A stretch of DNA of 64,000 nucleotides from Styela clava (GCF_964204865.1 NC_135252.1:16182001-16246000); one strand, 5' to 3'. Positions 11,546 to 55,515 are shown, numbered from the stretch's first letter. Notes: generated from the sequence alone by a model not told the origin. Numbers and translations are program-made.

Positions 11546-11649
11546 AGTAACGCCTATTCCATGGGTATTTGTACTCCTGTAGCACAGTAGACTCCATAGT
11601 CCATATCCCCAACATCTTCACCAGTGTCTATCTCAGACAGCACACATAC
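11546..11649 (-). pseudogene. Relic of GIY-YIG gene exon 2, downstream of copy C
   Basis: Acceptor then VCVLSEIDTGEDVGDM.../VLQEYKYPWNRR with a frameshift; homologous to 38733-38831. Confidence 0.75.
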
Positions 11650-13344
11650 CTAAAACGCAAAATTACCTATTACATGCATCACTGCTCTTCTCGATGAAAA
11701 GCATAATTTAGTTTCACTTTATTTCTAACAAGCGTGATATAAAAATTGAGAAGCTTATTAGTCAATTGATATTTTCAATAGGTCATCCGCGAAAAGGTTT
11801 TGAATAAGCGTGTATTATGACTTCTGCCTGAAACATTAGAGCCAACTATTCATATGGCATATGATAACTTATCATGTAGAATTGCAAGTATGTGGTCTCT
11901 CTCTGGCATACAAGTGGGAAAATACCTGCAATTACTAAATTTAATACGAACCATTGGGGCGGGACGGCTGCTGCCAGACTTCGCTTTTCCTGTAATTTGA
12001 GCATTTGTTTTGTTGAGTGCCAATGTTGCACCGGGAGTGTACTGGATCAGGTATGCCGTAATATCTTCTTCGCAAGTTTTAGGCCGCGAGCCGAGGCCAT
12101 TTATCTTTCAGTTTCGTAGCGCACATAAGGTAACTACCTGAAAATGATTTTAAAATGTTCCTTAGAAATTTAGTAACAAATATTGCCTTGTTCCCACTTC
12201 CAAAAGTTGCACGTTTTACAGAAAAGACGCTTTTACCACAATAAATATGTGTTACCATCTGTCCTATTTCCTCTGCTTTCCCGGTATTATGGGCCATTGA
12301 ACGCAGACTTCTGCATGACGTAACAATTAAATTAGTCAGCTGTAGGTGCATCCCCAGTGGTCGGATGAATATCAGATGTACTACTACTGCTCGCTTTTGC
12401 GTTGAGTAGCCTTTCCATAGTTTTTTCAGTTATTATTAGTTCAGTTATTCTAAGGAGGTGTTGAAAAGTATAAGTAAGGTATTAAACACTTGTATATCCT
12501 TACCATAAATAGCAATTTTAGTTGAGCACTAGCTTTTAAAAGACGTTGTTAAATAGGTACGGTGCGGTAACTCCAAGGAAAGCTAGACCTAGAATAATAT
12601 GTCACAAACAACGATATTTTCTGGCTTGCATGAAATGTTTATGATTAATTTAATGACTCTTCTTGACTATTCAGCAGACTTATACTACTATATAGGCCAC
12701 AGCATATTTGGAAATAGAAATTAATGGCTGTTTCTGTATGCACGGTTGTGTGAAAGAGAAGAAAATAATCAATTTTGCTAATGTCGGTTGGTCTAAATCT
12801 AAATTCATAGAGGCGACAAGAACATGGGAAGCAATGATAAGTTATGCCGGAGTGGAAAGAAAGTAGCATTGGAAACGATTGAGAGGTGAGAAATAAAGTT
12901 GTAGACAGACAGTTGATGTTTTAAAATATAGTCTAGGGCTCTAGGCCTATAGTCCATACTCATACTGTCATAGGGCATTTCAGACTGTGACATGTCAAAA
13001 TTTAGTGTAGATATAGTCTAGTAATGGTATGCAAACACTGCTGGACTGTAGTACATTCAATGAGCATATATACGCTCATTGAGCAGGCTACATCATATAA
13101 AATGCATTATGTATTCAAGGTATTAGTTAGTATTTAGTGGTATTTTTACACTCGTACTGTTCCAAAAATGATTTTCTTCCTCATTTTAGATACTGTACTA
13201 CAAAAGAAAACGGCAATGTTCAACCAATCCGACCTAACGCAGGCTCTAATCCCTGCTGCTATCAGTGCTATAAAATGGATTAAACAAGAAGTCTTGAAGC
13301 GTAAAGGTATATGAGAATCATAATAGTTGCAAATTGCAAAATAT

Positions 13345-13623
13345 TCAATGCAGCAACCAGTTTGTTCATGTCGTCATCCGACAATTCGTCTTTGAATTCA
13401 TCCTTCGCATTCTCCAAAAATGCTTGAAACGAATCGATGTCCTATATACGAAATAATAACAGTAAGAAGACAAAATAATGAAAAATGATAGGCTGATGAA
13501 AGAAATAACAAAGGAGTTTGGAACAAGATGACCTAGCTTTTCAGTTAGGCCAGTTTTTCAATAGAATCACGATCCCATCCAAGAAGTCGAAGGCCGGCTT
13601 TAGCAATGCCGCCAAGTACTTTT
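13345..13623 (-). pseudogene. Inverted prepropeptide pseudogene fragment, copy D (exon 2 and truncated exon 3)
   Basis: KVLGGIAKAGLRLLGWDRDSIEKLA*LKS* has two stops; exon 3 breaks off after ALN; intron-1 homology continues to about 13950; no exon 1 or 4. Confidence 0.88.
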
Positions 13624-14333
13624 CTCTGAATAAAAATCTATTTTCTCCTTTACCAGCTAATATTCTGTTATCATTCAGATATAATTAGCCCGTTGAGGCT
13701 ACACTAGTGATACCACTAGTTGGTACGCTTTGACTATTCAATTTAACTAAAGGAATACTGGTCTTCTATTGCCAATTGGGCAACTTCCGAATGAAAGCTA
13801 TTGGGCTATTATACAGCAGATTTGTAGGGAAGGCGTACAGGGTGCGTGCTGTCAAGGAAGTGAAATAAATATGCTAAAACTTCTTCTTGTAAATAATCAT
13901 GAATCTTTAGTCTGATTAGAAAGGTGCGAATGTGTCGAATGAAATCTTTTGCTTTGAAATTGACAGTGGTTAAAGATTTTTTTGCTAGGAGGCTATTACT
14001 TTTATTTATTTCGAAAATTTCTGTGGGCTCCATGGAATTTTATTTTGTTTGCGCAGCTTGTGGCGGTTCCGCGTTCATGTTGGTTGCCATCTTGTGATGG
14101 GCCGGCGAAATCCAAATAACTGGGGTACTGCTGGTCTACTGTGACAAATTGCATACCCGTACTACCTCGTTTTGGCTTTCATGCCCATATATTTAAACAA
14201 TGCTCTCTTTTTTAACAACATGGAAATAGAAGCATTTTATCATATGTATAAATGAAATAGTATACCTCATATCAGAAATAAATGTCTGATATTTTTTTTT
14301 CATTCGCGTGATCAACTAGATCTGTTTTTTGAG

Positions 14334-14608
14334 TTTTACAAGGAACAAGTGCTATTGAAAAGTTGTCTTGCGTTTATTCAAGGTTACGCACTGTGCTAAA
14401 CTTTAAGCTAACACATGACATTGGTTGCGATGTAATCAACCATTAACTTCTTCATATTGTGACATTAGAGGTTTAAAGCAGGTTAGAAATTTCCTGGTTT
14501 CTTGAATTTCAAGCTGTTCCTTTTCCTTCCATTCATGACCAAACATCATTTCATACATCCTATAAAGATAGCGACGAGGCTTATAAAAGTGCACATTTCC
14601 ATTATACT
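14334..14608 (+). repeat. Diverged duplicate of the copy A upstream/TATA region (about 2429-2725)
   Basis: Shared blocks cgtttattcaag, actgtgct.aactttaagcta, gtttaaagcaggtta, catacatcctataaa, tataaaag. Confidence 0.75.
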
Positions 14609-17255: not shown

Positions 17256-20200
17256 ATGAATTTCAAGTTTCTCGTTCTATTGCTCCTTGTTGCTTTGTTA
17301 GCAATTCAACACGGTGATTCCTGGGGTCGGAGACGACGCCGGGGAAAGAAACGTAGAGGATGGCATACAGCAGGGTAAATATCATAACAATTGAATCCAA
17401 AGTTTATATAATACAGTGGTTCCAACCTTTTATTATATCGCGGCACGCTATTGAGCACTTTAAATAATCGCGGCACTCCTATCTCAAAACATGAACTTTT
17501 CTACTCTTAAAGCCAGTTTGCTATAAAATAAAAATAAACAAAGAAGATCAGACAAAGGGTATTTTATTCATGTGAGTACAAAATACCCTGTATTTAGTAA
17601 CAGGTATAGAGAGACATATATCTAACTCTCTGAGAGAAACACACTTTTAACGCAGGCGAGGGGACTCCAATAATTTCGTCTATATTTAAACACATCTTGT
17701 TTCCGCTTTACAAAATAAACATTACTGAAAAATACGATAGTCGAGCGCGAATGGTTAATAGTTTCCGATACTATAACTATTTTCTTACAATAATGTACAC
17801 GAGAGCGCCTTCGGAGCACCTCACATTATTGTATAAGATAAGCGGCCTCGCGGGTAATATGTGGTCTTCAAACGCACCGTCAATCACGCGCTTCGGTTTT
17901 GCTGGCCCTACCCCGCTCCACGTTACGCCCTTAATATTATCAGGTATTCTTACTTTTACACAATCTTTGCACAATTCTTTTTGTTGCAATCTGATATATT
18001 TCTCCCATTGACAAAATCATTCAAGTCAATTCAATCAATTCAAATTATAGTCAGCACTTGCGAGAGAAATGAAATGCCCGAGCATATATCGATGGTAATG
18101 ATATGTCGAAACGCCTATTCGACTTTTTAGAACGCAAAAACTATTCGAAAAACGTAACACAGTACGCAGTACAGTCTTTGCACAGTAATTTGTTTCCTTG
18201 TTTGACATTTTTAATTTTACGAAACGGTGTTGGCGCTCTTTATGCTAAACTAAGAATTGAAAAATACCCAAATTCGACTCCTCAAATATGTCGTTTCTGT
18301 TTGTTAGGAAGAGCCGTGGGGTAATTCTCGCGGAATTCAAGAGATTGGAGATCAAAAATGAAATCTCTTCGCGGCACACCAATGTGGCACGGTGGTTGGG
18401 AACCACTGATGCAATGTATATAACAATATTGCCAATTAAAATGCCGGGATGACACTTATTTGTAGTATAAATATGGCTCTAATTTGATTGGTCAGTAGGA
18501 GTTAACATTCTTTATGTATACGTCTTATTGAGGACGTAACTCAAAACAAAAGAAATAAAACATTTTTGCGTCGTTTTCAAGCTTGATATATGCTTGTCCG
18601 AGTGTTTGTGACCCCCCCGTTGCGCGTCCAATACCACCCCGTTGCGCGTCACTTTTTTTTCGCATATTTTCAATTCTGCGAGTTTTATATCTGTAAGTAT
18701 TTGAAAACAAAGAAATATACAGAGGAATATGTTATTACTTGAAAGAAACTAATTTGAGCGAGCGAGCAATCGTTCTCGGCGCGTAAACAAGGTAGTAATC
18801 ATTACCCGCACAATAATAAACAAACAAGGATCGCGTTCGCTCGAAACTGTTGGCGAAAACATGCTCTCTTTGTATCTTGAATATTTTGCGTTGCGTTTCG
18901 CTCCAGAATGCCACTCTTATCTCGTTTGAAAGACGACGATCTTCTCCATTTTTGGGATATTAGATGTCGAGTCCATCTGGCTTGTATTTATCACTCCGAT
19001 TTGAAATACAGAACTTTTTTCAAATTTTTTTTTCACATCTCTCGTTTCAACGCAACGGGGTTGAGACAAACGTGCTCGTGTCTCGAGAAACATTTTGTAT
19101 GAAGCGACGTAGATACTCTTTCAAAAGAAATCGCAGTGAGGTCTCTCGCACGTAAAGTAGTGACATTTTGTAGAAGGGGGATTTTTTTTCAAAGAAGAGT
19201 TGGTTTTAGAGGAAAATATTGACAATTTATTAAAGTGTGCACTAGTTAAATTCGATCACATAATTAGTTTACACCTATTTGTTATATTTTTGATCATAGG
19301 TTTTCGAAAAAAGTTTTTCTCAACACATTTGCAACATTTCCAATCAGACTAAATAATTATGATTATTTACAAGAACAAGTTTTAGCATATTTATTTCTTG
19401 ACAGCATAGGCCATATATTTCTGTCCCAGAAATCTGTTGGTTACTAACCCAATGGCATTCTTTCGAAAGGAAATACAAGACCAGAATTCCGTTGGTAAAA
19501 CTGGAAAGATAGAGCGTACCCATATTAGTATCACTGCTTTAGAATTAACAAGATAATTATCTCTGAATGATGGTGAAATATTAGCTTATATTGAAACAAC
19601 AAAATGATTCTTATTTAGAAAAGTAGTTGGCGGCATTGCTAAAGTCGGTCTCAAATTTATTCCATGGGATCGTGATTCTTTGGAGAAACTGGCCTACCTA
19701 AAAAGCGAGGTTATCTTTTTTACACTTATTTATTTTTTATTATTTCCTTTATCATCTTATCATTTCGTCGTAATATTGTTATTTATCTGTATATAGGACA
19801 GCGACTCGTTTCAAGAATTTTTGAAGAATGCGAAGGATGAATTCGAAGACGAATTGTCGGATGACGACATGAACAAGTTGGTTTCTACATTAAATGCAGT
19901 CTCTGGAATGAATCTGGGTAAAATGTTTTATTAACAACAGAAAAATGTAGTTGAAACCAGCACTTGTTTATTTTCAATGTTTCGCTATTCTTATCGATTT
20001 CACTATTCTTATAACACGAATTAAAAAAATTATATCGATATCGATGCAATTGGTGCATTTTCCATAATAATTGCCGTCACGAGACAGATTTCCAATATCA
20101 TATTACTTACATATATTACCTCGTATTAAACAATGCTCCAACCACTCGTAAATGGGTTTATTCGCGCTGATTGATTTATTTCTTCTTGTCGTTTAACAGA

Positions 20201-20321
20201 CGAAATTGAAGAGTATGCTCAGAATATGAGAAGCAACGATGTAGAAGTTAATGAAAGCTTAAAGCAAGCTACTGACCAACTCCGTGAGGAATTACTCCTG
20301 AAAACCGCAATGATGCGATAA
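17256..20321 (+). CDS. Cationic prepropeptide, copy E (150 aa; exons 17256-17374, 19619-19709, 19797-19917, 20200-20321)
   Basis: Core WGRRRRRGKKRRGWHTAGKVVGGIAKVGLKFIPW; splice sites and frame intact; intron 1 expanded to 2244 nt by insertions. Confidence 0.88.
17414..18408. mobile_element. hAT (Charlie/Buster-like) non-autonomous element in copy E intron 1
   Basis: Termini cagtggttccaacc / ggttgggaaccactg; subterminal cgcggcac repeats; degenerate 8-bp TSD (atataata / atgcaatg); absent from paralogous introns. Confidence 0.78.
18438..19214. mobile_element. Unclassified insertion in copy E intron 1
   Basis: Absent from the introns of copies B and C; flanked by aatattgccaatt / aatattgacaatt direct repeats. 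Confidence 0.5.
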
Positions 20322-20785
20322 ATGAGTTCCGATGCAAAAGATTTGGCCATATTGTTTCTGAAATCTAGCGAAAGTTATACTATAGTATTTTTCTTTATCT
20401 AGTTATTTGAATTAGTTGAAGCGTCTTACATTGCGGATTGATTCCGACAATAAATAAATAACTAAGCGGAATTTGTCTGATATTATTTCATTTATTTGAA
20501 GGGTGTGGCATAAAAGACTTGCCTGCATTCGGCTTGCTTATGTTTGCTGGATATACATCGTCGAACCTTTATCAGGAGAGTTCTGTAAGCAGTCTGCTCG
20601 CATGTCCCAAGGTTTCGACTCACTCGCGTGTTTTTCTTTGAAAACTCTAGAATCTGACTGACTGAATCATTCTCATGGATAATATTGATCAATACATATT
20701 TATTCACACATTACCTATTTTTCAAATATTGATCATTTCAATCGAATGTTCAATAGACAATGAAAAATGATGACAATTTTCTACG

Positions 20786-20887
20786 TTAATAGTAACTCAT
20801 ATTTCATGGGTATTTGTACTCCTGCAGTACGCTAGATTCCATATCACCAGCATCTTCATCAGTGTCTATCTAAAACAGCACACGCAC
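20786..20887 (-). pseudogene. Relic of GIY-YIG exon 2, downstream of copy E
   Basis: VRVLF*IDTDEDAGDMESSVLQEYKYP*NMSYY*; adjacent sequence (about 21110-21210) matches the intron of the intact gene. Confidence 0.8.
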
Positions 20888-23307
20888 CTAAAACATGAAA
20901 TTACCTATTACATGCAGCACCATCTGGCAGCAATGCTCTTCTCGCCAAAAAGATAAATTAGTTTTACTTTATTTTTAACAAAGCGTGATATAAAAATTGA
21001 GAAGCTTCATAGTCCATTGATATTTTAAATAAGTTATTATCGACAATGCCTTGAATAAGCGTTGATATCACGACTTCCGTATCGAACGTTAGAGACATTA
21101 TTTCTCAGACAGGCATGTAGAAACCTAAGATGTAGAATTGCAAGTAAGAAGTCTCTCGGCATACACGTGGAAAAATAACGGCAAGGGTTGTAAATAGTCA
21201 ATGAAACCACAAGCCACATTTTGTGTTTGTGATACTATGTGCTAAAGATGACACCTGTGCTCAAATTATTGCCCTGATATATAAATTTACTATCCACCTT
21301 GTTTTCAACGCCAATTTCGGTCTTTAAAGCTGTGTCTACACTATATATTTTACTTCTCGCTGGTCAAAATTTTTTTTTATATGTTTTAGCGGAATTATTC
21401 GTGCTTTATTTTCATTCTATATTTTATCGTCGAAAGCTTATCTCCAGCAAAACAGAAATGTGTTAGAAATATTTGAACCATAATTTCAAATGATCACCTA
21501 AATCAAGCCATATTCAACGTATAATATAGACGTACATTGTGAAAGATACAAAAGAAGTGAAAACGTATGGATTTCTGGTCCCTGTCACAGCAATTGGGTG
21601 TTATTTATTTTTCCGCTAAAGCTCAGAATTTTCTAAATAAAAATTTTTTGAATAAGCATTCCACTGAATAAGCATTATTTTGTAATGACCCACAATTTGT
21701 CAGGCCAACAAGTTGACGAAATTCTCTTAAAGCTTTGCGCATTTCTTTGCGTCTTATGAATAATATTTCAGCGGATGTTTTTTTTTTTTTTGAATCTCAG
21801 TTCATTATTGATAAAGCCGATTGATTAGTCAGTCATAACTTCATGCTAGCAGGTTTGTATTTTTCACAAAATATTTATGCTTTCATCATGTTATTTCAGA
21901 TATATCATATGGATATTCCAGCTAGGAACGAGTGAAATATCATCATGTCTAGCCATCATCAATATTAAAAGTTGGTATTAATAATTCTACACGTGCAGTC
22001 GATTGAAGCACAAGTTAGGTATTTGGTCAAATCCTAGTTATTTAGGCTTTTCTTCATTACGTAGGGACACCATTACTTTGCACTAGTGCTAGGAAATGTA
22101 ATGACAGCGGTTGGCTATCTAATTAAACTAATTGTTACTGGCTTACTGCCATCTAATATCTTTGAATTGTAGAAACTTCTAATCACTGCCAAAACAAATG
22201 GAACGATGCAAAAAATTATCTACATTCATGTTAATTCAATCATATATTTCACAGTAATTCAATAAATAGTCTTGCTGCACACTAACACAAATATATTTCT
22301 GTAACGTTTCGTCTGACCACGGTCAAACTTCCTCAGACATACATATTTCAACCCAATCGATAGCATATATTTCACAACTTGAAACAAAATACATTTGTCA
22401 CGTTCTGTCTTCAGTAAACTCTCATTTTTGAGTGTTCCAATGTCACGATATCAAGCTTTTTAGAATCGAAACTGAAACACAAAACAACAACGTTACGAAT
22501 GTGATTCACAACAGTTTTTATCCAGACGAGAAGCTGATTAAAATAGTAAACGAACTACATTTAAAACGTATGTTAGCCTACAAGCCCAATATTGTTGTGC
22601 ATTCGACTTTCAATTATGAGATTTTCATAAAATTCGCCACTAAAGTTATTTTTAAGTTAACAAGCATATGGTTTCATATATTTATATTAGAAAATATTTC
22701 TTAAACTGTAAAGCATATGTCGACGGGGAATGAATAATTTGCTGTTTATAGATGCCTAAAAAATTTTTTTGTTATAAAACTATTCAAAATCGTGTTGCAG
22801 TAGTCAAGCTGTTGGGGAAAACGCCCATTAGAAAACGTATATAAACGCGAAGAATTTGTTGAGAATCACATTGAGCCGTATCTACACTCAGAAGACGTTA
22901 AAGGTAAGGGGTAAATCTGAGTATTTATTTGTCTATCATTTCTTAAACGGTTCGTCTTGATGATGAAAATTGGCTTTTTGTTTTCAGTTTTTTTTTTCAG
23001 CATTTCAGCTCCCCGTGCTCGACTTGATGCGTAGATCTTGGCGCATTGAGAAATGTTTAACCCCAGATTGCCCCATCAATGAAAACATTATCTGATTACA
23101 TACATGAAAGTTTATTGCTCTTTATTTTACCAAAACTGACGCCGTGTTTATTATTTTTAACCGTGGAATGTTTTCCTTCAATTTGATATCTCCGCACTAT
23201 ATTTGCACTACAGAAAGAATTGAAGAACCTAGAAAATTACGTTATAAAAATAAAGTATATTCAGAAACTAGAAACTTTAACTTAATATTACATTATGAAT
23301 TTTATAG

Positions 23308-24254
23308 ATGAATTTCAAGTTTCTCGTTCTATTGCTCCTTGTTGCTTTGTTGGCAATTCAACATGGTGATTCCTGGGGTCGGAGACGACGCCGGGGAAAG
23401 AAACGTAGAGGATGGCATACAGCAGGGTAAATTTTTTTTTAATTGAATCCCTCGTTGACAGTCTATGAATTGTGCACTAATATTATCTGGTAATAAAACA
23501 AAATGACTTTATTCAGAAAAGTACTTGGCCACGTTGCTAAAGTTGGCCTTCGACTTCTTCGGTGGGATCGTGATTCTTTGGAGAAACTGGCCTACCTGAA
23601 AAGCGAGGTTATCTTTTTTTGAACTCGTTTATCTTTTATTATTTCTTTTATCGTTCTATCTTTTTTTATCATTTTGTCATATAACTGTTATTTATTTGTA
23701 TATAGGACAGCGCCTCTTTTCAAGAATTTTTGGAGAATGCGATGGATGAATTCAAAGACGAATTGTCGGATGACGACATGAACAAATTGGTTTCTGCATT
23801 AAATTCAGTCTCTGAAATGAATCTAGGTAAAATGTGATATAAACAAGAAGAAAATGCCTTATTACATCCTGTAGTTGAAACTAGCACTTGTTTATTTTCA
23901 ATGTTTCGTTAATTTTATTGCTTTCATTATTCCTTTAGCAACAATTTAAAAAATCATATCGATATCTACAAATGCAATTGGTGCATTTCCCATACTAATT
24001 GCCATCCCGACACAGATTTCCAATATCATATGACCTATTACTTAGATATATTACTTCGTATCAACAAAGTTCCAACCACTCGAATACAGGTTTATTCGCG
24101 TTAATTTATGTATTTTTCCTTGTCTTTTTAAACAGACGAAATTAAACAATTTGCTCAGAATCTGAAAAGCAACGACGTAGAAGTTAATGAAAGCTTAAAG
24201 GAAGCTACTGATCAACTCCGCGAGGAGTTACTCCTGAGAACCGCAATGATGTGA
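23308..24254 (+). CDS. Cationic prepropeptide, copy F (149 aa; exons 23308-23426, 23517-23607, 23706-23826, 24136-24254)
   Basis: Core WGRRRRRGKKRRGWHTAGKVLGHVAKVGLRLLRW; 90-nt intron 1; terminal CGA changed to TGA so it ends AMM*. Confidence 0.9.
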
Positions 24255-24858
24255 TAAGTTCCGAAAGCCGCTCTACTAATTCATATGACAAGATAATAAG
24301 TTTGCCAGCTCTCATTCAAAATACGTCATGAATATCTACAACTGGAAAACAGGAAAAATTCGAGACGACAATTCTACATGTGTGTGTGCCATGTTACTTT
24401 GATCAAAAATTTGGCCATATTGTTTCTGAAATCTAGCAAAAGTTATGCTATAGTATTTTTCTTTATCGTGGTATTTGAATTAGTTGGAGCGTATAACATT
24501 GCGGATTGATTCCGACAAGAAATAAATAACTGTGCGGAATTTGTCTGATATTATTTCATTATTTAAAGGGCGCTGCAAAAAAGACAAGCTTGCATCCCTC
24601 TGCTTACGTTTGCTGGAGATCCTCAGTCGAACCTTTATCGGGAGAGTTCTGCAAGCAGCTTGCGTGCTTGTCTGCGCCCCCTAGGTTTTAACTCACTCGC
24701 GTGTTTTTATTTGAAAACTCAAGAATCTGACTGACTGAATCATTCTCATGGATACTATTGATCAATACATTTTTATTCTTACATTACCTATTTTTCAAAT
24801 ATTGATCATTTCGAACGAATGTTCAATAGACAATGATGAATAATGACAATTTTCTACG

Positions 24859-24944
24859 TTAATAGTAACGCTTATTCCATGGGTATTTGTAACACTCCTG
24901 CAAGATTCCATATCGCCAGTGTCTATCTCATACATCACACGTAC
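24859..24944 (-). pseudogene. Relic of GIY-YIG exon 2, downstream of copy F
   Basis: VRVMYEIDTGDMES... with internal deletions and a frameshift before the KYPWNKR-equivalent sequence. Confidence 0.7.
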
Positions 24945-26748
24945 CTTAAACATGACTTTATCCATTACATGCAGCACTATCCGGCAGCAATGCTTTTCAT
25001 CAATTTAGTTTTCTTTTATTTCTAACTAAGCGTGATATCAAAATTGAGAAGCTTCATAGTCCATTGATATTTTAAATAAGTTATTAGCGACAATGCCTTG
25101 AATAAGCGTTGATATCACGACTTCCGTATCGAACGTTAGAGATATTATTTCTCAGACAGGCATGTAGAAACCTAAGATGTAGAATTGCAAGTAAGAAGTC
25201 TCTCGGCATACACGTGGAAAAATAACGGCAAGGGTTGTAAATAGTCAATGAAACCATATTTGTGTTTATGATACTATGTGCTAAAGTTGACACCTGTGCA
25301 AAAATTATTTCCCTGATATATAAATTTACTATCCACTTTGTTTTCAACGTCAATTTCGGTCTTTAAAGCTGTGTCTACATTATATATTTTACTGCTCGCT
25401 GGTCAGAAGAAAGTTTTATATGTTTTGGCGGGGTCATTCGTGCTTTAATTTCATTCTATATTTTATCGTCGAAAGCTTACCTTCAGCAAAACAGAAATGT
25501 GGTAGAAATACTTGAACCATAATTTCAAATGATCACCCAAATCAAGGCATAATCAACGTACAATATAGACGTACATTGTGAAAGATACAAATGAAATAAA
25601 AACGTATGGATTTCTGGTCCTTGTCACAGCAATTTGGTGTTATTTATTTTTCTGATAAAGCTTCGAATTTTCTAAATAAAAGAATTTGGAATAAGCATTC
25701 CACTGAATAAGCATTGTTTTGTAATCGTACCACAGTTTGTTAGGCCAACAAGTCGACGAAATTCTCTTAAAGCTTTGCGCAGTTCTTTGCGTGTTATGAA
25801 TATTCCAGCGGATTTCGTTTATTTTTTTGGATCTCAGTTCATTGTTGATAGAGCTGATTGATCAGTCAATCATAACTTCACGTTGGCAGGTTTTTATTTT
25901 TCACAAAAGATTTATGCTTTTATCATGTTATTTCAAATATTTGATATAGATATTCCAGCTAGGAACGGGTAAAATATCATCATGTCTAGGCATCATCAAT
26001 ATTAAAAGTTGGTATTAATAATTCTACACGTGCAGCCGATTGAAGCCCAGTTAGGTATTAGGTCAAAGCCTTGTTATTTAGGCTTTTCTTCATTACGTAG
26101 GGACACTATTACTTTTCACAAGTGCTAGGAAATGTAATGGCATCGGTCGACTAACTAATTGAACGAATTGTTACTGCCATTTACGATATTCAAATTGTAG
26201 AACAAAAGCAACGGTGTGAAACTTTATCTACCCTTATGGTAAATCTATTATGTATTTCACAACTTAAAACCAAATACATTTGTCACGCTCTGTCCTCGGT
26301 AAACTCTCATTTTTGAGTCTTCCAATGTCACGATATTAACTGTATAGTCAATATATAAAGTTTTCCAATGTCACGATATCAAGCTTTTTGAAATCGAAAC
26401 TGAAAGACAAAACAACAACATTACGAATGTGATTCACAACACATCTCCATCCATGCGAGAAGCTGATTAAAATAGTAAACGAAGCCGTTTGGCGGTTGGA
26501 CGAGCAACTATTTATACGATTATTCACATCATCGTTGAGTAATTTCACCGCTTGTGCGATGTAAAATTACACATACTATTGCATATTCCAATGTCACGAT
26601 ATCAAGCTTTTTGAAATCGAGACTGAAAGACAAAACAACAACATTACGAATGTAATTCACAATAGATTTTATCCAGACGAGAAGCTGAGTGAACTCCACT
26701 CAAAACGCATGTTAGCCCAATATTGTTGTGCATTCGACTTTCAATTAT

Positions 26749-28891: not shown

Positions 28892-29269
28892 AAATTAGTT
28901 GGAGCGTACTGCATTGCGTATGGATTCCGACAAAAAATAAAATAACTGAGCGGTATTTATCTGATAATATTTTTTTATTTAAAGGGCGTGGCATAAAAGA
29001 CATGCTTGCTTTCGCTCTGCTCACGTTTGCTGGAGATCGATAGTCGAACATCCGGTGGGTTCAAGCAGTATGCGTGCTTGTCTGCGCCCCCTAGGTTTTA
29101 AATCACCCGTGTGTTTTTATTTGAAACTCAAGACGCTGGCTGACTGAATCATTTTTATGGATCATATATTGATCAATACATATTTATTCACACATTACCT
29201 ATTTTTCAAATATTGATCATTTCAATCGAATGTTCAATAGACAATGATAAATAATGACAATTTTTTACG

Positions 29270-29373
29270 TTAATAGTAACGCTTATTCCATGGGTATTTG
29301 TACTTCTGCAGTACGCTAGACTCCATATATCCCCAGCATCTTCATCAGTGTCTATCTTATACAGCACACGTAC
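29270..29373 (-). pseudogene. Relic of GIY-YIG exon 2, downstream of copy G
   Basis: tttcag|VRVLYKIDTDEDAGD, then a 2-nt insertion, then MESSVLQKYKYPWNKRYY*. Confidence 0.8.
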
Positions 29374-31029
29374 CTGAAACATGAAATTACCAATTACATG
29401 CAGCACTATCCGACAGCAATGCTCTTCTCGATGAAAAACATAATTTAGTTTTACTTTATGAAAATTGAGAAGCATATTAGTCAATTGATACTTTGAATAG
29501 TTCATAGGCAAAAAAATTTTGTGGTCCCTGTTGTTAAATTTCATTTTCAACGTTTTTTTAACTTCATGTCGATACCTGAATTAAAGGCATATTATTTGGG
29601 ATTAAATTACAGACAAGGATGAACTAAAACTTAACTAAATAACATAATTTGACAGATTGTCAATAAATTGATTGTACAGAGAACTTGATCTCGTATCAAA
29701 CGCAACCACCTAAAAACTAAAGATTGGTGAACATTTGCGATAAGGCATCTGTTTAGTTAAAACGATTGTACTCGCTACAATCGGGCAGGGAAATCGGACT
29801 TTCTTCAATACTTTCCAAAAGTTGTAGAATATCACTAGGCATCCTTTTTTTCTGCTTTGCAATTTTCCATCAATGTGATAAACACATTTTTATTAATGAT
29901 TAGATCTTATGTAATTGACCAGGAATCTATAAACGAAAGATATAAATGCATACTTAGGTTACTATGTGTGGTAAATCATGTCTACAAAACACGAATTGCT
30001 ATTGGTGTTTATGTCGATAAAAAGTACAGACATATTGTTCCTTGTTCAGATCTATGATGTCGTCAAACATATGTTGCAGTATTGTCAGTATTATCATACG
30101 TCATAGTGAATGGTACGCCGCGAAACTGAATTTTCAATCACCTTTATGCGGGGACAGTTCCAGGTTTTTTGAAGATTAATTTGTCGTTGGATTTTACTCA
30201 ACTTCGAGAAAACTTTTCCGTAATTCCGAAAGTTGTATATGGTGATTAGGTACAAAACTTGGATCTTTTATACAACGTTTAGTAGTTTTTTTGACAAAAG
30301 ATTTGCACATTTGCATCGTTTTATTCCGACTTAAGGATCATGATTATTTACAATAACAAGTTTTATCATATTTATTTCACTTTTATGTACGCCATCTCTA
30401 CATAGATCTGTTGTTAAATAGTCCAATAGCTTCCCAATATCCCAATTGGCAATAAGAGACCAGAATTCCATTAGTCAAAGTGGAAAGATAGAGTTGTTGA
30501 TTGGAATCATTAGTTCAGATTTAACAGAATAATTATACATGAATGATAATAGAATATTATCTTATAATAAAACTAAATGGTTTCTGAATGTAGTTCTTTT
30601 ACTATTTTAATCAGCTTCTCGTCTGGATAAGAAAACTGTTGTGAATCACATTCATAACGTTGTTGTTTTGTCTTTCAGTTTCGATTCTAAAAAGCTTGAT
30701 ATCGTGACATTGGAAGACTCAAGAAAGAGAATTTACCGAAGACAAAACGTGACAAATGTATTTTGTTTCAAGTTGTGAAATATATGATTGATTTAACATG
30801 AAAGTAAATAATTTTTTACATCTTTCCATTTGTTTCGGCAGTGATGAAAAATTTCTACAATTCAAAGATATTAGATGGCAGTAAGCAGTAACAATTAGTT
30901 CAATTAGTTAGCCAACCGCTGCCATTACATTTCCTAGCACTATAGTGAAAAGTAATAGTGTCCCTACGTAATGTAAAAAGGTCTAAATAATGAGGCTTTG
31001 ACCGAATACCTAACTTGTGCCTCAGTCGG

Positions 31030-34959: not shown

Positions 34960-35845
34960 TTAGTAGAGCAGCGTTCGAAACATTGCGGTTCTGAGGAGTA
35001 ATTCCTCACGGAGTTGATCGGTAACTTGCTTTAAGCTTTCATTAACTTCTACATCGTTGTCTTTCATATTCTGAGCAAATTCTTCAATTTCGTCTGTTCA
35101 AATACAAGGTAAAATAAATCAATTAACGCGAGTAAACCTACATTCGAGTGATTGGAACTTTGTTTGATACGAAGTAATATATGTAAGTATTAGGTCATAT
35201 GATATTGGAAATCTGTGCCGTGATGGCAATTAGTATGGGAAATGCAGCAATTGCATTTGTAGATATCGATATGATTTTTTAAATTGTTGCTAAAGGAATA
35301 GTGAAAACGATAAAATTAACGAAACATTGAAAATAAACAAGTGCTAGTTTCAACTACAGGATGTATCAGAGCATCTTCTCTCTGTAAAAAAAAACATTTT
35401 ACCCAGATTCATTCCAGAGACTGAATTTAATGCAGAAACCAATTTGTTCATGTCGTCATCCGACAATTCATCTTTGAATTCATTCTTCGCATTCTCCAAA
35501 AATTCTTGAAAAGAGTCGCTGTCCTATATACAAATAAATAACAGTTATATGACAAAATGATAAAAAATGATAGAACGATAAAAGTAATAATAATAAAAGA
35601 TAAACGAGTTCGAAAAAAGATAACCTCGGTTTTCAGGTAGGCCAGTTTCTCCAAAGAATCACGATCCCATCGAAGAAGTCGAAGACCGACTTTAGCAACG
35701 TGGCCAAGTACTTTTCTGAATAAAAGTCATTTTGTTTTATTACCAGCCAATATTAGTGCACAATTCATAGACTGTCAACAAGGGGTTCAATTACTTTAAA
35801 ATTTACCCTGCTGTATGCCATCCTCTACGTTTCTTTCCCCGGCGT
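34960..35845 (-). pseudogene. Inverted prepropeptide copy I lacking start codon and signal peptide
   Basis: Exons 2-4 open (KVLGHVAKVGLRLLRW...; ends RTAMFRTLLY* after loss of the normal stop); a deletion joins intron sequence (ctataacta) to acgccggggaaag, removing acceptor, ATG and signal peptide. Confidence 0.88.
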
Positions 35846-36659: not shown

Positions 36660-37601
36660 ATGAATTTCAAGTTTCTCGTTCTATTGCTCCTTGTTGCTTT
36701 GTTAGCAATTCAACATGGTGATTCCTGGGGTCGGAGACGACGCCGGGGAAAGAAACGTAGAGGATGGCATACAGCAGGGTAAATTTAATAGTAATTGAAT
36801 CCCTTGTTGACAGTCTATGATTTGTGCAGTAATATTGGCTGGTAACAAAACAAAATGACTTTTATTTAGAAAAGCACTTGGCCACGTTGCTAAAGTTGGT
36901 CTTCGACTTCTTCGGTGGGATCGTAATTCTTTGGAGAAATTGGCCTACCTGAAAAGCGAGGTTATCTTTTTTTGAACTCGTTTACTATTTATTATTTATT
37001 TTATCGTTCTATCATTTTTTATCATTTTGTCATATTACCGTTATTTATCTGTATATAGGACAGCGACTCTTTTCAAGAATTTTTGGAGAATGCGAAGGAT
37101 GAATTCAAAGACGAATTGTCGCATGACGACATGAACAAATTGTTTTCTGCATTAAATTCAGTCTCTGGAATGAATCTGGGTAAATTTTTTTTTTTAACAG
37201 AGAGAAGATGCATCCTGTAGTTGAAACCAGCACTTGTTTATTTTCAATGTTTCGTTGATTTTATCGCTTCCGCCATTCCTTCAGCAACAATTTAAAAATT
37301 ATATCGATATCTATTGATGCATCCGGTGCATTTTTCATACTAATTGCCATCACAAGAGAAATTTCCAATATCATATGACTTATTACTTACATATATTACT
37401 TCGTATTAAACAAAGTTCCAACCACTCGTATATAGGTTTATTCGCGTTAATTTATTTATCTTCCCTTGTTTTTGAACAGACGAAATTGAAGAATTTGCTC
37501 AGAATATGAAAAGCAACGATTCAGAAGTTGACGAAAGCCTAAAAAAGGCTACTAATCAACTCCGTGAGGAGTTACTCCTGGGAACCGCATTGATGCGATA
37601 A
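36660..37601 (+). CDS. Cationic prepropeptide, copy J (150 aa; exons 36660-36778, 36870-36960, 37059-37179, 37480-37601)
   Basis: Core WGRRRRRGKKRRGWHTAGKALGHVAKVGLRLLRW; intact TATA, UTR-exon donor (36262) and splice sites; ends GTALMR*. Confidence 0.9.
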
Positions 37602-38732: not shown

Positions 38733-39562
38733 TTAAGAACGCCTATTCCACGGGTATTTATACTTCTTCAGCACTTCCTTCTCCATTTCCCCAGCATCTT
38801 CACCAGTGTATTTCTTCAACAGTACACGTACCTGAAACATGACTTTACCCTATTACAATGCAAACATCCATAGCTGGAACGACCGTGTTTTGGATACGCG
38901 ATTGTAATATGATTTCAGTTAGAAACGTTAGAATCGATGTAAAATTGCAGAAACGAATTTACTTGGAATGGAAAAATAACTATAAGGGCTGTAAACAATC
39001 ACCGGAACCACATGCTCCATTCAGGTTGAAATCAGAATTGACGCCGGATCACATTTCATCTGCTCCAGAAATAAGGGTAACAGACGTAGCGAAGGTTTTA
39101 AAGGATCGTATGCACAAATACAATATTTCTTTTTATGCGGAAAATAGTGAACCAACTTACTTCGACAAATTCTCAGAAAAAAAAAATTTGAAAGATTACC
39201 TGCAATGCTTGACCCTCTTCTAAGACTTTGTCGATTTTCGTAGCAAGATGGGATCCGTCTGTACAATATTGATCTACTCGATCCAGTACGGAACAATTTG
39301 AGCTTGATTCCGATTTCCCAACATACACAACTTCTCTTGTTTCCCTAATTCTCCATTCATAAATTCCATCGTCCCCAGCAAAAAGATCCAATTTTTCCAT
39401 ATCGCTTCTTCTCAGACGATATCCATCACCATTCCTTTCTTCGTACGAGCCATTTTTGTCCTTTCGAATGCTTGGCTTCATAACAGTAACGAATCCAGAC
39501 CACTTTCCTCGCCATTTTTTGAATAGATCTCGATCATCTGCGTCCTCTCTCTTGGTTCTCAT
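38733..39562 (-). CDS. Stand-alone GIY-YIG nuclease-like protein (153 aa; exons 39562-39200 and 38831-38733)
   Basis: Exon 1 ...DGIYEWRIRETREVVYVGKSESSSNCSVLDRVDQYCTDGSHLATKIDKVLEEGQALQ|gtaatc; tttcag|VRVLLKKYTGEDAGEMEKEVLKKYKYPWNRRS*. GIY/YVG motif, helix Arg, candidate metal-binding Glu and terminal Asn occur in canonical order; phase-0 intron. Confidence 0.85.
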
Positions 39563-41227
39563 ATTTTATTGAATCTTCCAGGGAACAGTCGTACTGACAA
39601 ATTTATGGAATTCCAACGGTAAATCGTAACTGTACCGAGCTTACGTAGGTGTTTACTTCATCTGATGGGCAATAACAAATGTGCTGTAATAAATAAAACA
39701 CGAATTGGAGATTAATATTTAACTAAAATTAATGGTGTTGTTGCACCATTCCCGATAAATGTTTCGAAAATGGGGTTTCATTTGGGGATATCCCTGGGTG
39801 TGTGTACATAAACCATATTTTGCTAATTTGGCGAATAAATACAGACGCGATATAAGACATGTTGTATTGTGGAGTAGGGTTTATGGTCTACGGTTGAATA
39901 TTACGTTTTTCCTAAAATAATGATTCAATTAAATATTTCAATCCGAGAATGATTTTATAAATCAAGCTTTAGAAATTAAATAGTCATTTAAAATTGAAAT
40001 ATTTTTTAAAGATGGCGGAATAATTATTTAACCAGAAAATGTAGATTTAGTTGAAATTACGTTATTTTAGATTAGGGAACAACAAACATATCCGTAACAT
40101 TTAATGATAATGAAAAAATGCGATTTTGCTTCATGTCAATATTTATTCATCAAAGACAACTTTACTGGTTGTTTCTCGGACGTTCGAGTCAAAATCAAAC
40201 AATGCTCTAAAGTCAAAGTGAAGTAAATTTGGCGTTCGTAAATGAAATTAATAAGGATTTATGTATAGTATTCGTAGAGAAAGTTAGTGAGATCGGAGTG
40301 GCAATTTTAGAGTACTTTGCGAATGTCTGTCGTCTTTCCCTATAAGTGCCGGTTCTCTCTATAAGTACTTTCCCATTTGATCTGTGGAAATTTGTATCGT
40401 ATAACAATATTCGATGTGTATTTCACTTCAAAGTAGGCATCGTGAAGAATTTGCTAAACAGGTAATGGCCCAGCGAAATTTTCAAATATATATCACAAGA
40501 GTTATTATAATGCTTTTTGTGGTGCTCTTTCAGCCTATGTGCACATAACTATCTTGTAGTGTTTACTGCTCGAGCTCAGTGTAGGCACAGTCGGGTGTTC
40601 ATTATTATCATCTTTTTTTTGTGGCACAGATCGCGTATAATTAATAGAATTGAAAAAGTACAATAAAAATGTTGAAACAATTCCAATACAATTAAATTAA
40701 AGATGCTTATTTGGGGAGTTGGTCAATATTCTTCAACGTTTTTTTTAACTCCATGTCGATATCCGAAGTAAAGGCATATTATTTGAAATTAAATTACAGA
40801 TAAGGTGGTACTGAAACTTAACTAAATAACATAATTTGACAGATTGTCAATAAATTGATTGTACAGAGAACTTGATCTCGTATCAAACGCAACCACCTAA
40901 AAACTAATGATTGGTGAACATTTGCGATAAGGCATCTGTTTAGTTAAAACGATTATACTCGCTACAATCGGACAGGGAAATCGGGCTTTCTTCAATGCTT
41001 CCCAAAACATGGAGAATATCACTAGGCGGAACTTGCTTTTTTCTGCTGTGCAATTTCCCATCAATGTGATAAACACATTTTTATTAATGATTAGAGCTTA
41101 TTTAAAGTCAAAGTGGAAAGATAGAGTGTACGAACATTGGAATCACTAGTTCAGAATTAACTAGATAATTATACATGACTGATAATAGAATATTAGCTTA
41201 TAATAAAACAAAACGATTTTTATTCAG

Positions 41228-41542
41228 AAAAGTAATTGGGTGGGATTGATAAAGCCCGTATCAAACTTCTTGGATGGGATCGTGATTCTTTGGAAAAACT
41301 GGCCTATCTGAAAAGCGAGGTTAGGTCTGTTTTTAAAACTTATTGATCCTTCTTTATTTCTTTCATCATTCTTCTAGCATTTTGTCTTCTTACTGTTATT
41401 TATCTGTATATATATATATAGGACAACGGCTCTTTTCAAGAATTTTTGGAGAATGCGAAGGACGAATTCAAAGACGAATTGTCGGATGACGAAATGAACA
41501 AATTGGTTTCTGCATTGAATTCAGTCTCTGGAATGAATCTGG
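41228..41542 (+). pseudogene. Prepropeptide copy K (exons 2-3 only)
   Basis: Exon 2 frameshifted (aaa gta att ggg tgg gat tga); exon 3 (41422-41542) open; exons 1 and 4 missing. Confidence 0.85.
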
Positions 41543-41703
41543 GTAAAATGTGATATAAACAAGAAGAAGATGCTCTGATACATCCTGTAGTTGAAACTAG
41601 CACTCAATATTTTGATATTTGTATCGCTTTCACTATTCTTATACAAAAAATTTAAAAATGCCACCACGAGATAGATTTTCAATATATATCATATTATGAC
41701 TTA

Positions 41704-44368: not shown

Positions 44369-44391
44369 TAATAAGTTTTCGAAACGAAATC

Positions 44392-53257: not shown

Positions 53258-53946
53258 CATCATTTAACAGATAAAACAAGGGTCGTCACATCTCCATATC
53301 AATACCTGAAGTAAAAGCATATTATTTGAGATTAAATTACAGACAAGAATGAACTGAAACTTAACTGAATAACATATTTTGACAGATTGTGAATAAAGTG
53401 ATCGTACAGAGAACTAGATCTCGTATCAAATGCAACCGCTCAATAACTAATGATTGGTGAACATTTGCGATAAGTTTGCGATTTGTTTAAGTAAAACGAT
53501 TATACTCGCTGCAATCATGCTGGGAAATTGGACTTTCTCGAATACTTTCCAAAAGTTGTAGAATGTCATTAGACAGGACATACTTTTTTTTGCTGTGCAA
53601 TTTTCCATCAATGTGATAAACACATTTTTATTATTGATAAGATCCTATTCATTTGACCAGGAATCTTTAAACGGAAGAATAAATGCATACTTAGGTTACT
53701 ATGTGTGGTAAATCATTTCTAGAAAACACAAATTGCGATTGGTGTTTATGCTAATAAAAAGTACAGTTGTACATATTGTTTCTTGTTCAGATCTATGATG
53801 TCGTCGAACATATGTTGCAGTATTGTCACTATTATCATACGTCACAGTAAATGGTACGCCGCGAAACTGAATTTTTAAGGTTTTAAGCTTCCCGTTTTTT
53901 TGAAGATTAATTTGTCGTTGGATTTTACTCAACTTTGAGAAAACTT
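53258..53946 (+). repeat. 689-bp segment almost identical to 58443-59131; older relatives at about 29560-30240, 40750-41100 and 61110-61990
   Basis: One mismatch noticed between the two recent copies; diverged copies share gcatattatttg.gattaaattacagac and gattggtgaacatttgcgataag. Confidence 0.88.
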
Positions 53947-54096
53947 TTCGAAATTCCAAAAGTTGTGGATCTGCAGTTAAATAGTCCAATAGCTTTCCAA
54001 TAGCCCAATTGGCAAATAAGAGAGACCAAAATTCCATTGTCTAAGTGGAAATATAGAGCGTACGCACATTGGAATCACTAGTTCTTCGTGATTCCA

Positions 54097-54637
54097 GGAT
54101 CGTGATTCTTTGGAAAACTGGCCTACCTGAAAAGCGAGGTTAGGTCTGTTTTTAAAACTTATTTAACTTTCTTTATTTCTTTCATTATTCTTTTAGAATT
54201 TTGTCATATTACCGATATTATCTGTATATAAATAGGACAACGACTCGTTTCAAGAATTTTTGGAGAATGCGAAGGATGAATTCAAAGACGAATTGTCGGA
54301 TGACGACATGAACAAACTGGTTTCTGCATTAAATTCAGTCTCTGGAATGAATCTGGGTAAAATGTGATATAAACAAGGAGTAGATGCTTTGATACATCTT
54401 GTAGTTGAAACTAGCACTTGTTTATTTTCAATATTTTGATATTTGTATCGTTTTCACTATTCTTATACAATGAATTAAAACGGCCATCACGAGACAATAT
54501 TTCAATATTATATGAATTATTAAGCATAAATAAATAAATAAATGAAAAACATTGATGTAGAAGTCAATGAAAGCTTATAGAAAGCTACTGATCAAATCCG
54601 GGAGGAGGTACTCAAGAGAACCGTAATGATGCGATAA
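54097..54637 (+). pseudogene. Prepropeptide copy L (3' part of exon 2, exon 3, damaged exon 4)
   Basis: Exon 3 (54236-54356) open; exon 2 truncated and frameshifted; exon 4 lacks its acceptor and has an in-frame TAG before ...RTVMMR*. Confidence 0.85.
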
Positions 54638-55182
54638 ATGAGTTCCGAATGCTGCTCTACAAATTTATTTACCAAGATAAAGTTTTCACAACAGCACTTG
54701 TTAAAATACGCCATAGATTATCTATATCCAAAAATGGGAAAAAAGCAAAACGACAAAGAAAAAGTTCTTTAAAATGATTAACATCTGTTCTCGACAACCT
54801 CAATATGGCGGCTGACCGATATAGTATCTCTATTCCTACAAAACAATGCATTCAAACGCCTTTATTCGCATTTGAATGCAGTTTAACTTGAGCTACCAAT
54901 GGGTTTTGATGCATGATATTATTTTTCGTGTCTACAAAATAACATTTTTTTTATTAGTATTTGAGCTTCACACCCGCCTTTTTACTCGCTTAACTTATAC
55001 ACAAGAAACATATGCTTCTCCTTCAGACGACACCATTGTTACACAACAATGGCAATTCCCATACAGGCATTGAGATATAAAGTCACACAACAATGATCAT
55101 TTTCTACAACCTTGCATAAAATTAGCTATTTTTTTATGTTGAAGAAGTGTCGAAATTGCCGTCGGATCTTATTACATCTGAC

Positions 55183-55515
55183 TTAGAAATAAGGGAAACA
55201 ATATTGATTGACTCGATCAAATACTGAATTATCAGATTTTGATTCAGATTTTCCTACATACACAACTTCCTTTCCTCCCGTTTTTTCCTCAATTTGCAAC
55301 TCATAAATTCCATCATTCCCAGCAAAACAATCTAACTGTTCCATGTCGCTTTTTCTCCGACAATATCCATTACCACTCCTTCCTTTGTACAAGCCGTTTC
55401 CGTTCTTTCTTTTACACCACTTCATAGTAGTATAGAATTCAGACCATTTTCCTTCCCATTATTCAAAAAGATCTGAATTACTTGCCTCATTTCTTTTGAT
55501 TTTCGGAGGAGCTAT
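55183..55515 (-). pseudogene. GIY-YIG paralog pseudogene (exon 1), convergent with copy L
   Basis: IAPPKIKRNEASNSDLFE*WEGKWSEFYTTMK...DGIYELQIEEKTGGKEVVYVGKSESKSDNSVFDRVNQYCFPYF*; internal stop, truncated after QYC, no exon 2 found. Confidence 0.82.

What the first reader, a model, noticed from the sequence alone, without database searches (positions are those of the whole stretch)
11546..55515. The duplicating unit is a tail-to-tail peptide + GIY-YIG nuclease cassette
Seen: convergent GIY-YIG sequence lies about 0.5-1.1 kb downstream of copies C, E, F, G, H (exon-2 and intron relics), J (intact gene) and L (exon-1 pseudogene). Peptide genes were kept in many copies while all nuclease copies but one decayed. 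Inference: either passive hitch-hiking with dosage selection against extra nuclease, or functional coupling (an immune effector pair, or a nuclease promoting the local breaks behind the many inversions and duplications). I know of no described AMP/GIY-YIG pairing.
Basis: partly seen in the sequence, partly recalled or inferred. Interest (0 to 1): 0.75.

Follow-up and report, generated by a model that had tools for sequence, protein, structure and literature searches.

The report
Nuclease fragments hitch-hiking in peptide cluster
In a sea squirt, a gene for an unstudied DNA-cutting-type enzyme sits between two genes for antimicrobial-like peptides, and broken pieces of it were most likely copied along as passengers when the peptide genes multiplied.

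Summary
The layout is real. In Styela clava, 7 of 12 copies of a secreted cationic-peptide gene (P) have convergent GIY-YIG sequence 0.47-1.13 kb downstream. One nuclease gene (J) is intact: it equals RefSeq XP_039268512.2, belongs to PF19239, and folds most like T4 endonuclease II.

A co-selected cassette is not supported. The five exon-2 relics are one lineage (82-95% alike, 63-68% to J) and change neutrally (7 synonymous to 20 other variants). Three share one junction that lacks exon 1, so they were probably copied already dead. Three P copies with their 3' ends present (A, B, I) have no nuclease next to them. A second peptide gene (Q) upstream of the nuclease shows the same pattern: one intact copy and five dead fragments, four of them 76-78% to it. 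This points to an older duplication of a P-GIY-Q block, then passive re-copying.

What stays interesting: two undescribed peptide families, an uncharacterised nuclease family also found in clam and coral, and a kappaB-like palindrome upstream of both nuclease copies. Expression and synteny were not testable.

The parts
38733..39562 (-). Intact GIY-YIG nuclease gene J: exon 1 39562-39200, 368-nt GT-AG intron, exon 2 38831-38733; 153 aa
   Evidence: Splice model identical to RefSeq XP_039268512.2; PF19239 27 bits against cut-off 21.4; fold match T4 EndoII Z 10.9
55154..55504 (-). GIY pseudogene L: exon 1 with a nonsense codon, no start codon at the J position, and a deletion joining exon 1 to the mid-intron; no exon 2
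   Evidence: 74% to J exon 1, E 3e-50; alignment; dN/dS 0.46 against J
11433..11931 (-). GIY relic C: exon 2 (7-nt insertion), 3' flank and part of the intron; followed by sequence with no match elsewhere in the window
20678..21220 (-). GIY relic E: exon 2 (two stop codons) and intron up to the shared junction
24751..25262 (-). GIY relic F: exon 2 (deletions) and intron up to the shared junction
29167..29514 (-). GIY relic G: exon 2 (2-nt insertion), joined directly to a fragment of gene Q
31670..32200 (+). GIY relic H in the inverted block: exon 2 (stop shared with E) and intron up to the shared junction
21224..25262 (+). Example of the recent tandem unit (about 4 kb): intergenic X, P promoter, P gene F, spacer, GIY exon-2 relic; right edge inside the GIY intron
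   Evidence: Segment map; X is homologous to the DNA between A and B
36660..37601 (+). Peptide gene P copy J, four coding exons, 150-aa precursor: signal 1-22, cationic 23-56 (net +13), anionic propiece (net -12)
   Evidence: identical to RefSeq XP_077967420.1
6470..7765 (+). P copy B, open frame, no GIY sequence downstream
9610..10929 (+). P copy C, open frame (140 aa, in-frame deletions)
17256..20321 (+). P copy E, open frame, 2.2-kb first coding intron
   Evidence: equals XP_077967070.1
23308..24257 (+). P copy F, open frame (149 aa)
   Evidence: equals XP_077967406.1
27452..28396 (+). P copy G, 1-nt deletion in exon 4 (propiece only)
3549..4415 (+). Divergent P paralogue A, three exons, open frame, lacks most of the cationic stretch; no GIY downstream
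13343..13950 (-). P fragment D (exons 2-3, inverted)
32673..33554 (-). P fragment H (intron 3 and interrupted exon 4)
34972..35845 (-). P fragment I (5'-truncated inverted sister of J); its J-type spacer runs into a Q fragment with no GIY between
41229..41658 (+). P fragment K (exons 2-3)
54097..54637 (+). P fragment L (part of exon 2 to part of exon 4)
61092..63185 (-). Second secreted-peptide gene Q, four exons (63185-63010, 62141-62093, 61583-61535, 61120-61092), 101 aa, intron phases 2,0,1 as in P; my model, with no external record checked
   Evidence: the P-Q similarity found covers the signal peptide only (Q exon 1 compared)
29530..30238 (-). Dead Q fragment next to relic G
   Evidence: 78% to Q, 94% to the 40.7-kb fragment
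33553..34193 (+). Inverted Q fragment (exons 2-3) next to I; closer to intact Q than the other fragments
   Evidence: exon 2 96%
40530..41105 (-). Dead Q fragment about 1 kb upstream of intact GIY J
53291..53963 (-). Dead Q fragment; near-identical copy at 58476-59129
39785..39794 (.). kappaB-like palindrome upstream of GIY J; the same 10-mer at 55683-55692 upstream of L
   Evidence: consensus recalled, function untested

Best explanation
Passive hitch-hiking in a birth-and-death peptide-gene cluster. Shown: an ordinary two-exon host gene for a small GIY-YIG protein lies tail-to-tail with peptide gene P, and pieces of peptide gene Q lie upstream of it. Inferred step 1: an older duplication (about 25% divergence) copied the P-GIY-Q block whole, so two nuclease genes coexisted for a time. 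Inferred step 2: the second nuclease copy lost exon 1, most simply because a tandem-duplication edge fell inside its intron and joined it to the DNA upstream of P. Inferred step 3: that roughly 4-kb unit (P plus dead exon 2) was re-copied, inverted and recombined, probably by unequal crossing-over. Selection kept several P copies and nothing kept the extra GIY or Q pieces. The intact enzyme is most likely an intracellular metal-dependent DNA nickase that works like T4 EndoII; its substrate is unknown.
For: Relics are 82-95% alike and 63-68% to J, and agree against J at 54 of 224 columns. J's branch is 0.24 against 0.02-0.10 for relic tips, while J's peptide exons are 99/96/95/86% identical to F's. 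Variants among relics are 7 synonymous to 20 non-synonymous or stop, a fraction of 0.26 against 0.20-0.25 expected if neutral (P 0.31-0.52); exon 2 differs more among relics (12.3%) than its 3' flank (9.1%). E, F and H share one junction followed by region X, which is homologous to the DNA between A and B. No exon-1 trace near any of the five relics by nhmmer or protein profile. Internal control: four Q fragments are 76-78% to intact Q and 88-100% to each other, and only 1 of 6 Q copies is whole. A, B and I have no nuclease next to them. P is under purifying selection, dN/dS 0.30-0.44 in 6 of 6 pairs of B, E, F, J.
Against: A second nuclease copy probably functioned. J versus L exon 1 gives dN/dS 0.46, P 0.007, although a constrained J plus a neutral L would give about 0.5. 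All five relics match the outgroup P0003 at positions 129 and 139, where J differs, and all keep Glu138 and Asn150. Two of ten relic pairs show low dN/dS (C-E 0.27, P 0.028; C-H 0.23, P 0.020; uncorrected, not independent). C and G are cut before the shared junction, and the two trees disagree on whether they nest inside E/F/H (bootstrap 54 against 70). So the nuclease may have been lost 3 to 5 separate times (L, I, E/F/H, perhaps C and G). The neutrality test rests on 27 variants and cannot exclude partial constraint.
Confidence: 0.72

Rival explanations
1. Functional coupling by regulation: the nuclease is an inducible intracellular immune effector, for example against viral or other foreign DNA, kept inside a peptide cluster and switched on with it through Rel/NF-kappaB.
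For: The nuclease lies between two secreted-peptide genes. An identical kappaB-like palindrome sits about 220 and 180 nt upstream of J and L in a region 71% identical, and a perfect match lies in the P promoters of G and J; the whole window would give about 1.2 matches by chance. The closest solved fold is T4 EndoII, which nicks unmodified host DNA. Relatives look clustered elsewhere: 18 of 35 hits on contigs of 20 kb or more share a contig length with another hit, and a clam protein has six domains. Such expansion is typical of defence genes (own knowledge).
Against: The motif was noticed by eye first. It is perfect in only 2 of 6 P promoters, is imperfect in the open copies B, C, E and F, and also occurs in both LTRs and in another repeat. 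There are no expression data. The nuclease is not predicted to be secreted, and the 3' ends do not overlap. Copies A and B have open frames without it.
Confidence: 0.13
2. Whole cassettes were duplicated repeatedly, and selection removed each extra nuclease because surplus nuclease is harmful.
For: Only 1 of 7 GIY-derived copies is whole, against 6 of 12 open P copies. Losses differ in kind: whole gene at I, exon 2 at L, exon 1 at E/F/H, and unreadable at C and G. Two relic pairs have low dN/dS.
Against: Q, which is not a nuclease, fared the same (1 of 6 whole). The relics form one lineage and change neutrally. Apparent multi-copy arrays and multi-domain forms of this family exist elsewhere.
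Confidence: 0.1
3. The nuclease causes the local breaks, or is a selfish mobile element that spreads with the cluster.
For: The predicted active site is intact. The locus has tandem and inverted duplications.
Against: A protein from a spliced nuclear gene acts in trans, so it has no reason to cut locally (inference). No convincing terminal repeats lie around J or L, there is no Rfam match such as a hammerhead, and the only reverse transcriptase found belongs to a separate BEL/Pao element. The recent duplications copy a dead exon, which gives the gene no gain. Repeats 85-95% alike are enough to explain the instability.
Confidence: 0.04

Closest known systems
T4 endonuclease II (DenA; PDB 2wsh), GIY-YIG superfamily
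   Same: Best solved match by fold (Z 10.9, rmsd 2.8, 115 aligned; next Z 6.8) and by profile (E 0.004); small stand-alone domain with an N-terminal extension; Arg and Glu of the active site present
   Different: 17% identity; animal nuclear gene with a spliceosomal intron; oligomer state, substrate and sensitivity to modified bases untested
Pfam PF19239 (GIY_YIG_domain) proteins of marine invertebrates
   Same: Passes the curated cut-off; 89 relatives at E <= 0.001 including itself; named ones are from the clam Mercenaria and the coral Stylophora
Plant EFFECTOR OF TRANSCRIPTION (ET) factors
   Same: GIY-YIG nicking domain (PMC6585611, passages); a partial tandem duplicate, ET3, is regarded there as a pseudogene. 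A link between ET and PF19239 is recalled, not tested.
   Different: No ET repeats; 153-aa single domain
Ascidian linear cationic alpha-helical peptide precursors (styelins, clavanins, botryllin, Ciona LCAMPs)
   Same: Signal peptide, cationic stretch, anionic propiece, with an acidic residue at the border (PMC7387483); precursor length close to botryllin's 158 aa (PMC9966394)
   Different: P's predicted mature peptide is Arg-rich, has at most one Phe, no KHK motif and no Gly before the Asp; the only named relatives found are S. clava uncharacterised proteins; activity untested
Birth-and-death tandem gene clusters with passively co-duplicated neighbour fragments
   Same: Mixed open, frameshifted and fragmentary copies; mosaic relationships (H exon 4 is 98% to C, its relic 95% to E); inversions and inserted repeats
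   Different: The passenger is a nuclease; the general process is from own knowledge

Membership tests
GIY-YIG nuclease superfamily | GIY and YIG motifs, central Arg, C-terminal Glu (and Asn), as defined in PMC1564403 | tested here: met
   G66-I67-Y68, Y80-V81-G82, R95, E138, N150; all except V81 are at least 90% conserved in 48 aligned proteins
GIY-YIG nuclease superfamily | GIY-YIG fold | tested here: met
   Model pLDDT 91, pTM 0.86; T4 EndoII, I-TevI, UvrC, Hpy188I and Eco29kI are among the 7 chains with Z >= 5; Foldseek best E 0.007
GIY-YIG nuclease superfamily | DNA nicking activity | not testable with these tools
   Needs an assay
PF19239 | Pfam gathering score | tested here: met
   27 bits against 21.4 for the whole protein; single exons fall below it
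T4 EndoII (DenA) | Tetramer that nicks DNA lacking cytosine modification (PMC2764454) | not tested
   Fold likeness only; 17% identity; no tblastn match in phage records
Plant ET factors | Cys/His-rich ET repeats in addition to GIY-YIG | tested here: not met
   153 aa, fully spanned by the nuclease fold
Mobile GIY-YIG elements (homing endonuclease, Penelope-like) | Extra DNA-binding or reverse-transcriptase domain | tested here: not met
   Single domain; the only reverse transcriptase found is in the BEL/Pao element
Mobile GIY-YIG elements (homing endonuclease, Penelope-like) | Terminal repeats, ribozyme or self-splicing intron host | tested here: inconclusive
   Only short AT-rich repeats of the kind chance gives; 0 Rfam matches at gathering score; old elements can lose these marks
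   Recent units E, F, H end inside the intron; A, B, I have none; probably met for the older duplication
   No eukaryotic genome or expression collection was available; no paper names these genes
Ascidian LCAMP precursor (gene P) | Signal peptide, cationic amphipathic segment, anionic propiece | tested here: met
   Hydropathy peak 3.6; net +12 to +13, then -11 to -14; hydrophobic moment 0.63 for residues 36-55
Ascidian LCAMP precursor (gene P) | Antimicrobial activity, haemocyte expression | not testable with these tools
   Needs assays
Styelins | 31-32 aa, Phe-rich, amidated, KHK motif | tested here: not met
   About 34 aa, 0-1 Phe, no KHK, no Gly before the Asp
Clavanins | 23 aa, His- and Phe-rich | tested here: not met
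   About 34 aa and Arg-rich

The most novel reading that the evidence does not exclude
The nuclease is a Rel/NF-kappaB-inducible, EndoII-like intracellular defence enzyme of marine invertebrates, perhaps discriminating DNA by base modification, held between two undescribed antimicrobial-peptide genes as an old three-gene immune block.
Probability: 0.13. Interest if true: 0.75.

Novelty: new member of a known kind. Interest (0 to 1): 0.33.

Why it matters
As it stands, this is a clear small example of how a neighbour's dead exon can mimic a co-evolving cassette, with gene Q as the control. It also yields two undescribed candidate antimicrobial-peptide families in S. clava, and one intact member of a little-studied invertebrate nuclease family whose closest solved relative is a phage enzyme. 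If the nuclease were co-induced with the peptides, it would point to a DNA-cutting arm of invertebrate innate immunity and make the role of this family directly testable.

Tried and rejected
Five independent decays of J-like genes: rejected, because the relics are one lineage. Hidden exon-1 remnants beside the relics: none. Relics near A, B, D, I, K: none. Antisense overlap of the 3' ends: poly(A)-like hexamers lie 38 and 263 nt after P-J's stop and 64-75 nt after the nuclease stop, in a 1132-nt gap.

Close prokaryotic or phage relatives: none in GTDB genomes (147 pattern matches, 0 confirmed; this scan finds close relatives only) or in phage records. BFVD gave two unnamed viral models at E 2-4e-4 and 18% identity, which does not show a viral origin. 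The Atlas gave generic bacterial GIY-YIG clusters for the nuclease and nothing usable for P. Pfam matches for P are below cut-off and unrelated. Eight stray ORFs had no Pfam match above cut-off. A peptide-like start at 56488(-) and J/L similarity beyond about 300 nt upstream were not supported (score 65 against a shuffled maximum of 60). No complex prediction was run, because binding is not claimed.

Literature. No paper with GIY-YIG + antimicrobial peptide + tunicate (0 hits) or with the gene identifiers (0 hits). GIY-YIG + ascidian gave 5 unrelated listings. PF19239 gave one listing, but the term was not found in the passages. Searches listed nothing on this locus (titles and abstract starts only). 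The library lacks most subscription journals, and no supplements were read; those of S. clava genome or transcriptome papers may hold expression data. Metagenome and viral contig collections stayed unchecked.
Full report
Organism and genes. The window is Styela clava. The spliced nuclease model (exon 1 39562-39200, 368-nt intron, exon 2 38831-38733) equals RefSeq XP_039268512.2, and differs from the earlier record version at 3 of 153 residues. That the two versions come from different individuals is my inference. The peptide gene P has four coding exons and a 150-aa precursor; copies E, F and J equal RefSeq proteins, all labelled uncharacterised.

Observation. There are 12 P copies or fragments. 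GIY sequence lies convergent and downstream of 7 of them, at 468-1132 nt. None was found behind A, B, D, I or K by a DNA profile or a protein profile over all six frames. D and K lack their 3' ends; A, B and I do not. Open frames: B, C, E, F, J and the divergent A. G is frameshifted in the propiece, and D, H, I, K, L are fragments. So the layout is confirmed, but the contrast between kept peptides and lost nucleases is weaker than stated.

The nuclease. It passes the PF19239 cut-off and keeps the GIY and YIG-like motifs, Arg95, Glu138 and Asn150, the features named in PMC1564403 (passages). The model is confident (pLDDT 91). It matches T4 endonuclease II best (Z 10.9, rmsd 2.8, 115 residues, 17% identity; profile E 0.004). 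[quoted passage not shown] The protein has no hydrophobic N-terminus (0.85 against 3.6 for P), so it is probably intracellular. Relatives number 89 at E <= 0.001. The named ones are a six-domain clam protein and coral proteins. Of 97 hits, 35 lie on contigs of 20 kb or more, and 18 of these share a contig length with another hit (counted by hand; equal length is only a proxy for the same contig). Nuclease activity is inferred, not shown.

The relics are one lineage. Over exon 2 and flanks they are 82-95% alike and 63-68% to J, and all five agree against J at 54 of 224 ungapped columns. J's own peptide exons are 99, 96, 95 and 86% identical to F's. Variants among the relics are neutral in kind (7 synonymous, 20 other; 0.20-0.25 synonymous expected), and exon 2 is no better conserved than its 3' flank (12.3% against 9.1%). 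E, F and H share one junction, where intron similarity to J ends and region X begins. X is homologous to the DNA between A and B, that is, upstream of P. The first 220-320 nt of X are unassigned, so the edge is placed only within that stretch. This is what a tandem duplication with its edge in the nuclease intron would leave. C and G are cut before that point, and two trees disagree on their position (bootstrap 54 and 70), so one shared loss is the simplest reading but is not proven for them.

An internal control. A second secreted-peptide gene, Q (63185-61092, minus strand; my four-exon model), has the same intron phases as P. Its fragments lie at 29.5, 33.6, 40.5, 53.3 and 58.5 kb. Four of them are 76-78% to intact Q and 88-100% to each other, the same pattern as the nuclease relics; the 33.6-kb one is closer to Q. 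Q pieces lie upstream of J, directly behind relic G, and behind I with no nuclease between; intact Q lies about 5.6 kb upstream of L. I infer an ancestral block, P facing GIY with Q upstream, duplicated once at about 25% divergence and then reshuffled. A non-nuclease neighbour fared the same way (1 of 6 whole), so selection against nuclease dosage is not needed.

Against this reading. J versus L exon 1 gives dN/dS 0.46 (98 codons, P 0.007), which is also near what one constrained and one neutral branch would give. The relics keep Glu138 and Asn150 and match the outgroup P0003 at two sites where J differs. Fixed relic-versus-J differences are 4 synonymous to 7 non-synonymous (not significant). 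Two of ten relic pairs have low dN/dS. A second nuclease gene therefore probably worked for a time, and nuclease loss happened at least three times (I, L, E/F/H).

Coupling. The poly(A)-like signals of P-J and the nuclease lie several hundred bases apart, so the transcripts are unlikely to overlap. A kappaB-like 10-mer (consensus recalled) lies upstream of both J and L and in the P promoters of G and J. The window has 18 matches at 8 places against 1.2 expected, but these reduce to four independent origins, two of them in repeats. The site is imperfect in 4 of 6 P promoters, and I noticed it before testing. It is a lead only. For local break induction there is no evidence: no convincing terminal repeats, no Rfam match, and a trans-acting protein would not prefer its own locus (inference).

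The peptides. P has the signal, cationic, anionic layout described for ascidian LCAMPs, with an Asp at the border (PMC7387483, passages). It fails the styelin and clavanin features given in PMC10608444 and PMC9966394 (passages). Whole-gene dN/dS is 0.30-0.44 in 6 of 6 pairs. The predicted mature part is faster (0.37-3.35, none significant) than the propiece (0.18-0.43). Antimicrobial activity is inferred from architecture only.

Literature and limits. Ten searches found no description of this pairing or of these genes. PMC6585611 (passages) was read for ET factors; PMC8715426 and PMC7641849 (passages) gave nothing relevant. No supplements were read. Synteny in other ascidians and expression could not be tested, and metagenome and viral contigs stayed unchecked.

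Verdict. Observation partly confirmed. Best explanation: passive hitch-hiking after an older block duplication (0.72). Novelty: new member of a known kind. Interest 0.33. The most novel open reading, an inducible defence nuclease inside an immune gene block, has probability 0.13.

Noticed in passing
window 43447-51508: Young BEL/Pao LTR retrotransposon: 922-nt LTRs 99.3% identical, TG...CA ends, 5-nt target duplication, and two long overlapping ORFs in different frames with protease, RT, Pao peptidase and integrase domains. Each LTR carries kappaB-like motifs.
   Followed up: partly
window 61092-63185 (-): Gene Q: 101-aa secreted precursor with a cationic segment ending in Gly before Asp-Glu, which suggests amidation; candidate second peptide family; no external record checked.
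   Followed up: partly
window 3549-4415: Paralogue A keeps signal and propiece but lacks most of the cationic segment. RefSeq XP_077966842.1 fuses part of A to B, probably an annotation error.
   Followed up: partly
window 53258-53946, 58443-59131, 57621-58442, 59132-59953: A 689-nt duplicate (99.9%) sits between two 822-nt copies that are 100% identical: a very recent event or an assembly artefact.
   Followed up: no
window 30582-35884: One inverted block holds relic H, a Q fragment and P copy I, and abuts the J promoter, giving a fold-back-like head-to-head I/J pair.
   Followed up: partly
window 41704-42485 and 63225-64000: P fragment K is cut in intron 3 and joined to a 92% copy of Q's upstream region.
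   Followed up: no
window 15591-16915 and 17400-19560: Two insertions in P copy E, one in the 5' non-coding intron and one in the first coding intron. The ORF at 15590-15979(-) resembles a hAT/Buster transposase end by recall only; no Pfam support.
   Followed up: partly
window 11932-13343: Sequence unique in the window that cuts relic C; frames at 11850-12429(-) look retroelement-like by eye, with no Pfam support.
   Followed up: partly
window about 36170-36660: P appears to have a TATA box and a short non-coding first exon, with the start codon directly after the acceptor AG in the 5 copies checked.
   Followed up: partly
window 13949-14052, 31139-31379, 52672-52918: Short dispersed repeat, inserted into region X in the H unit.
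   Followed up: no
protein P0002 (Mercenaria mercenaria XP_053393955.1): Six tandem PF19239 domains behind an HTH/CENP-B-like N-terminal part.
   Followed up: no
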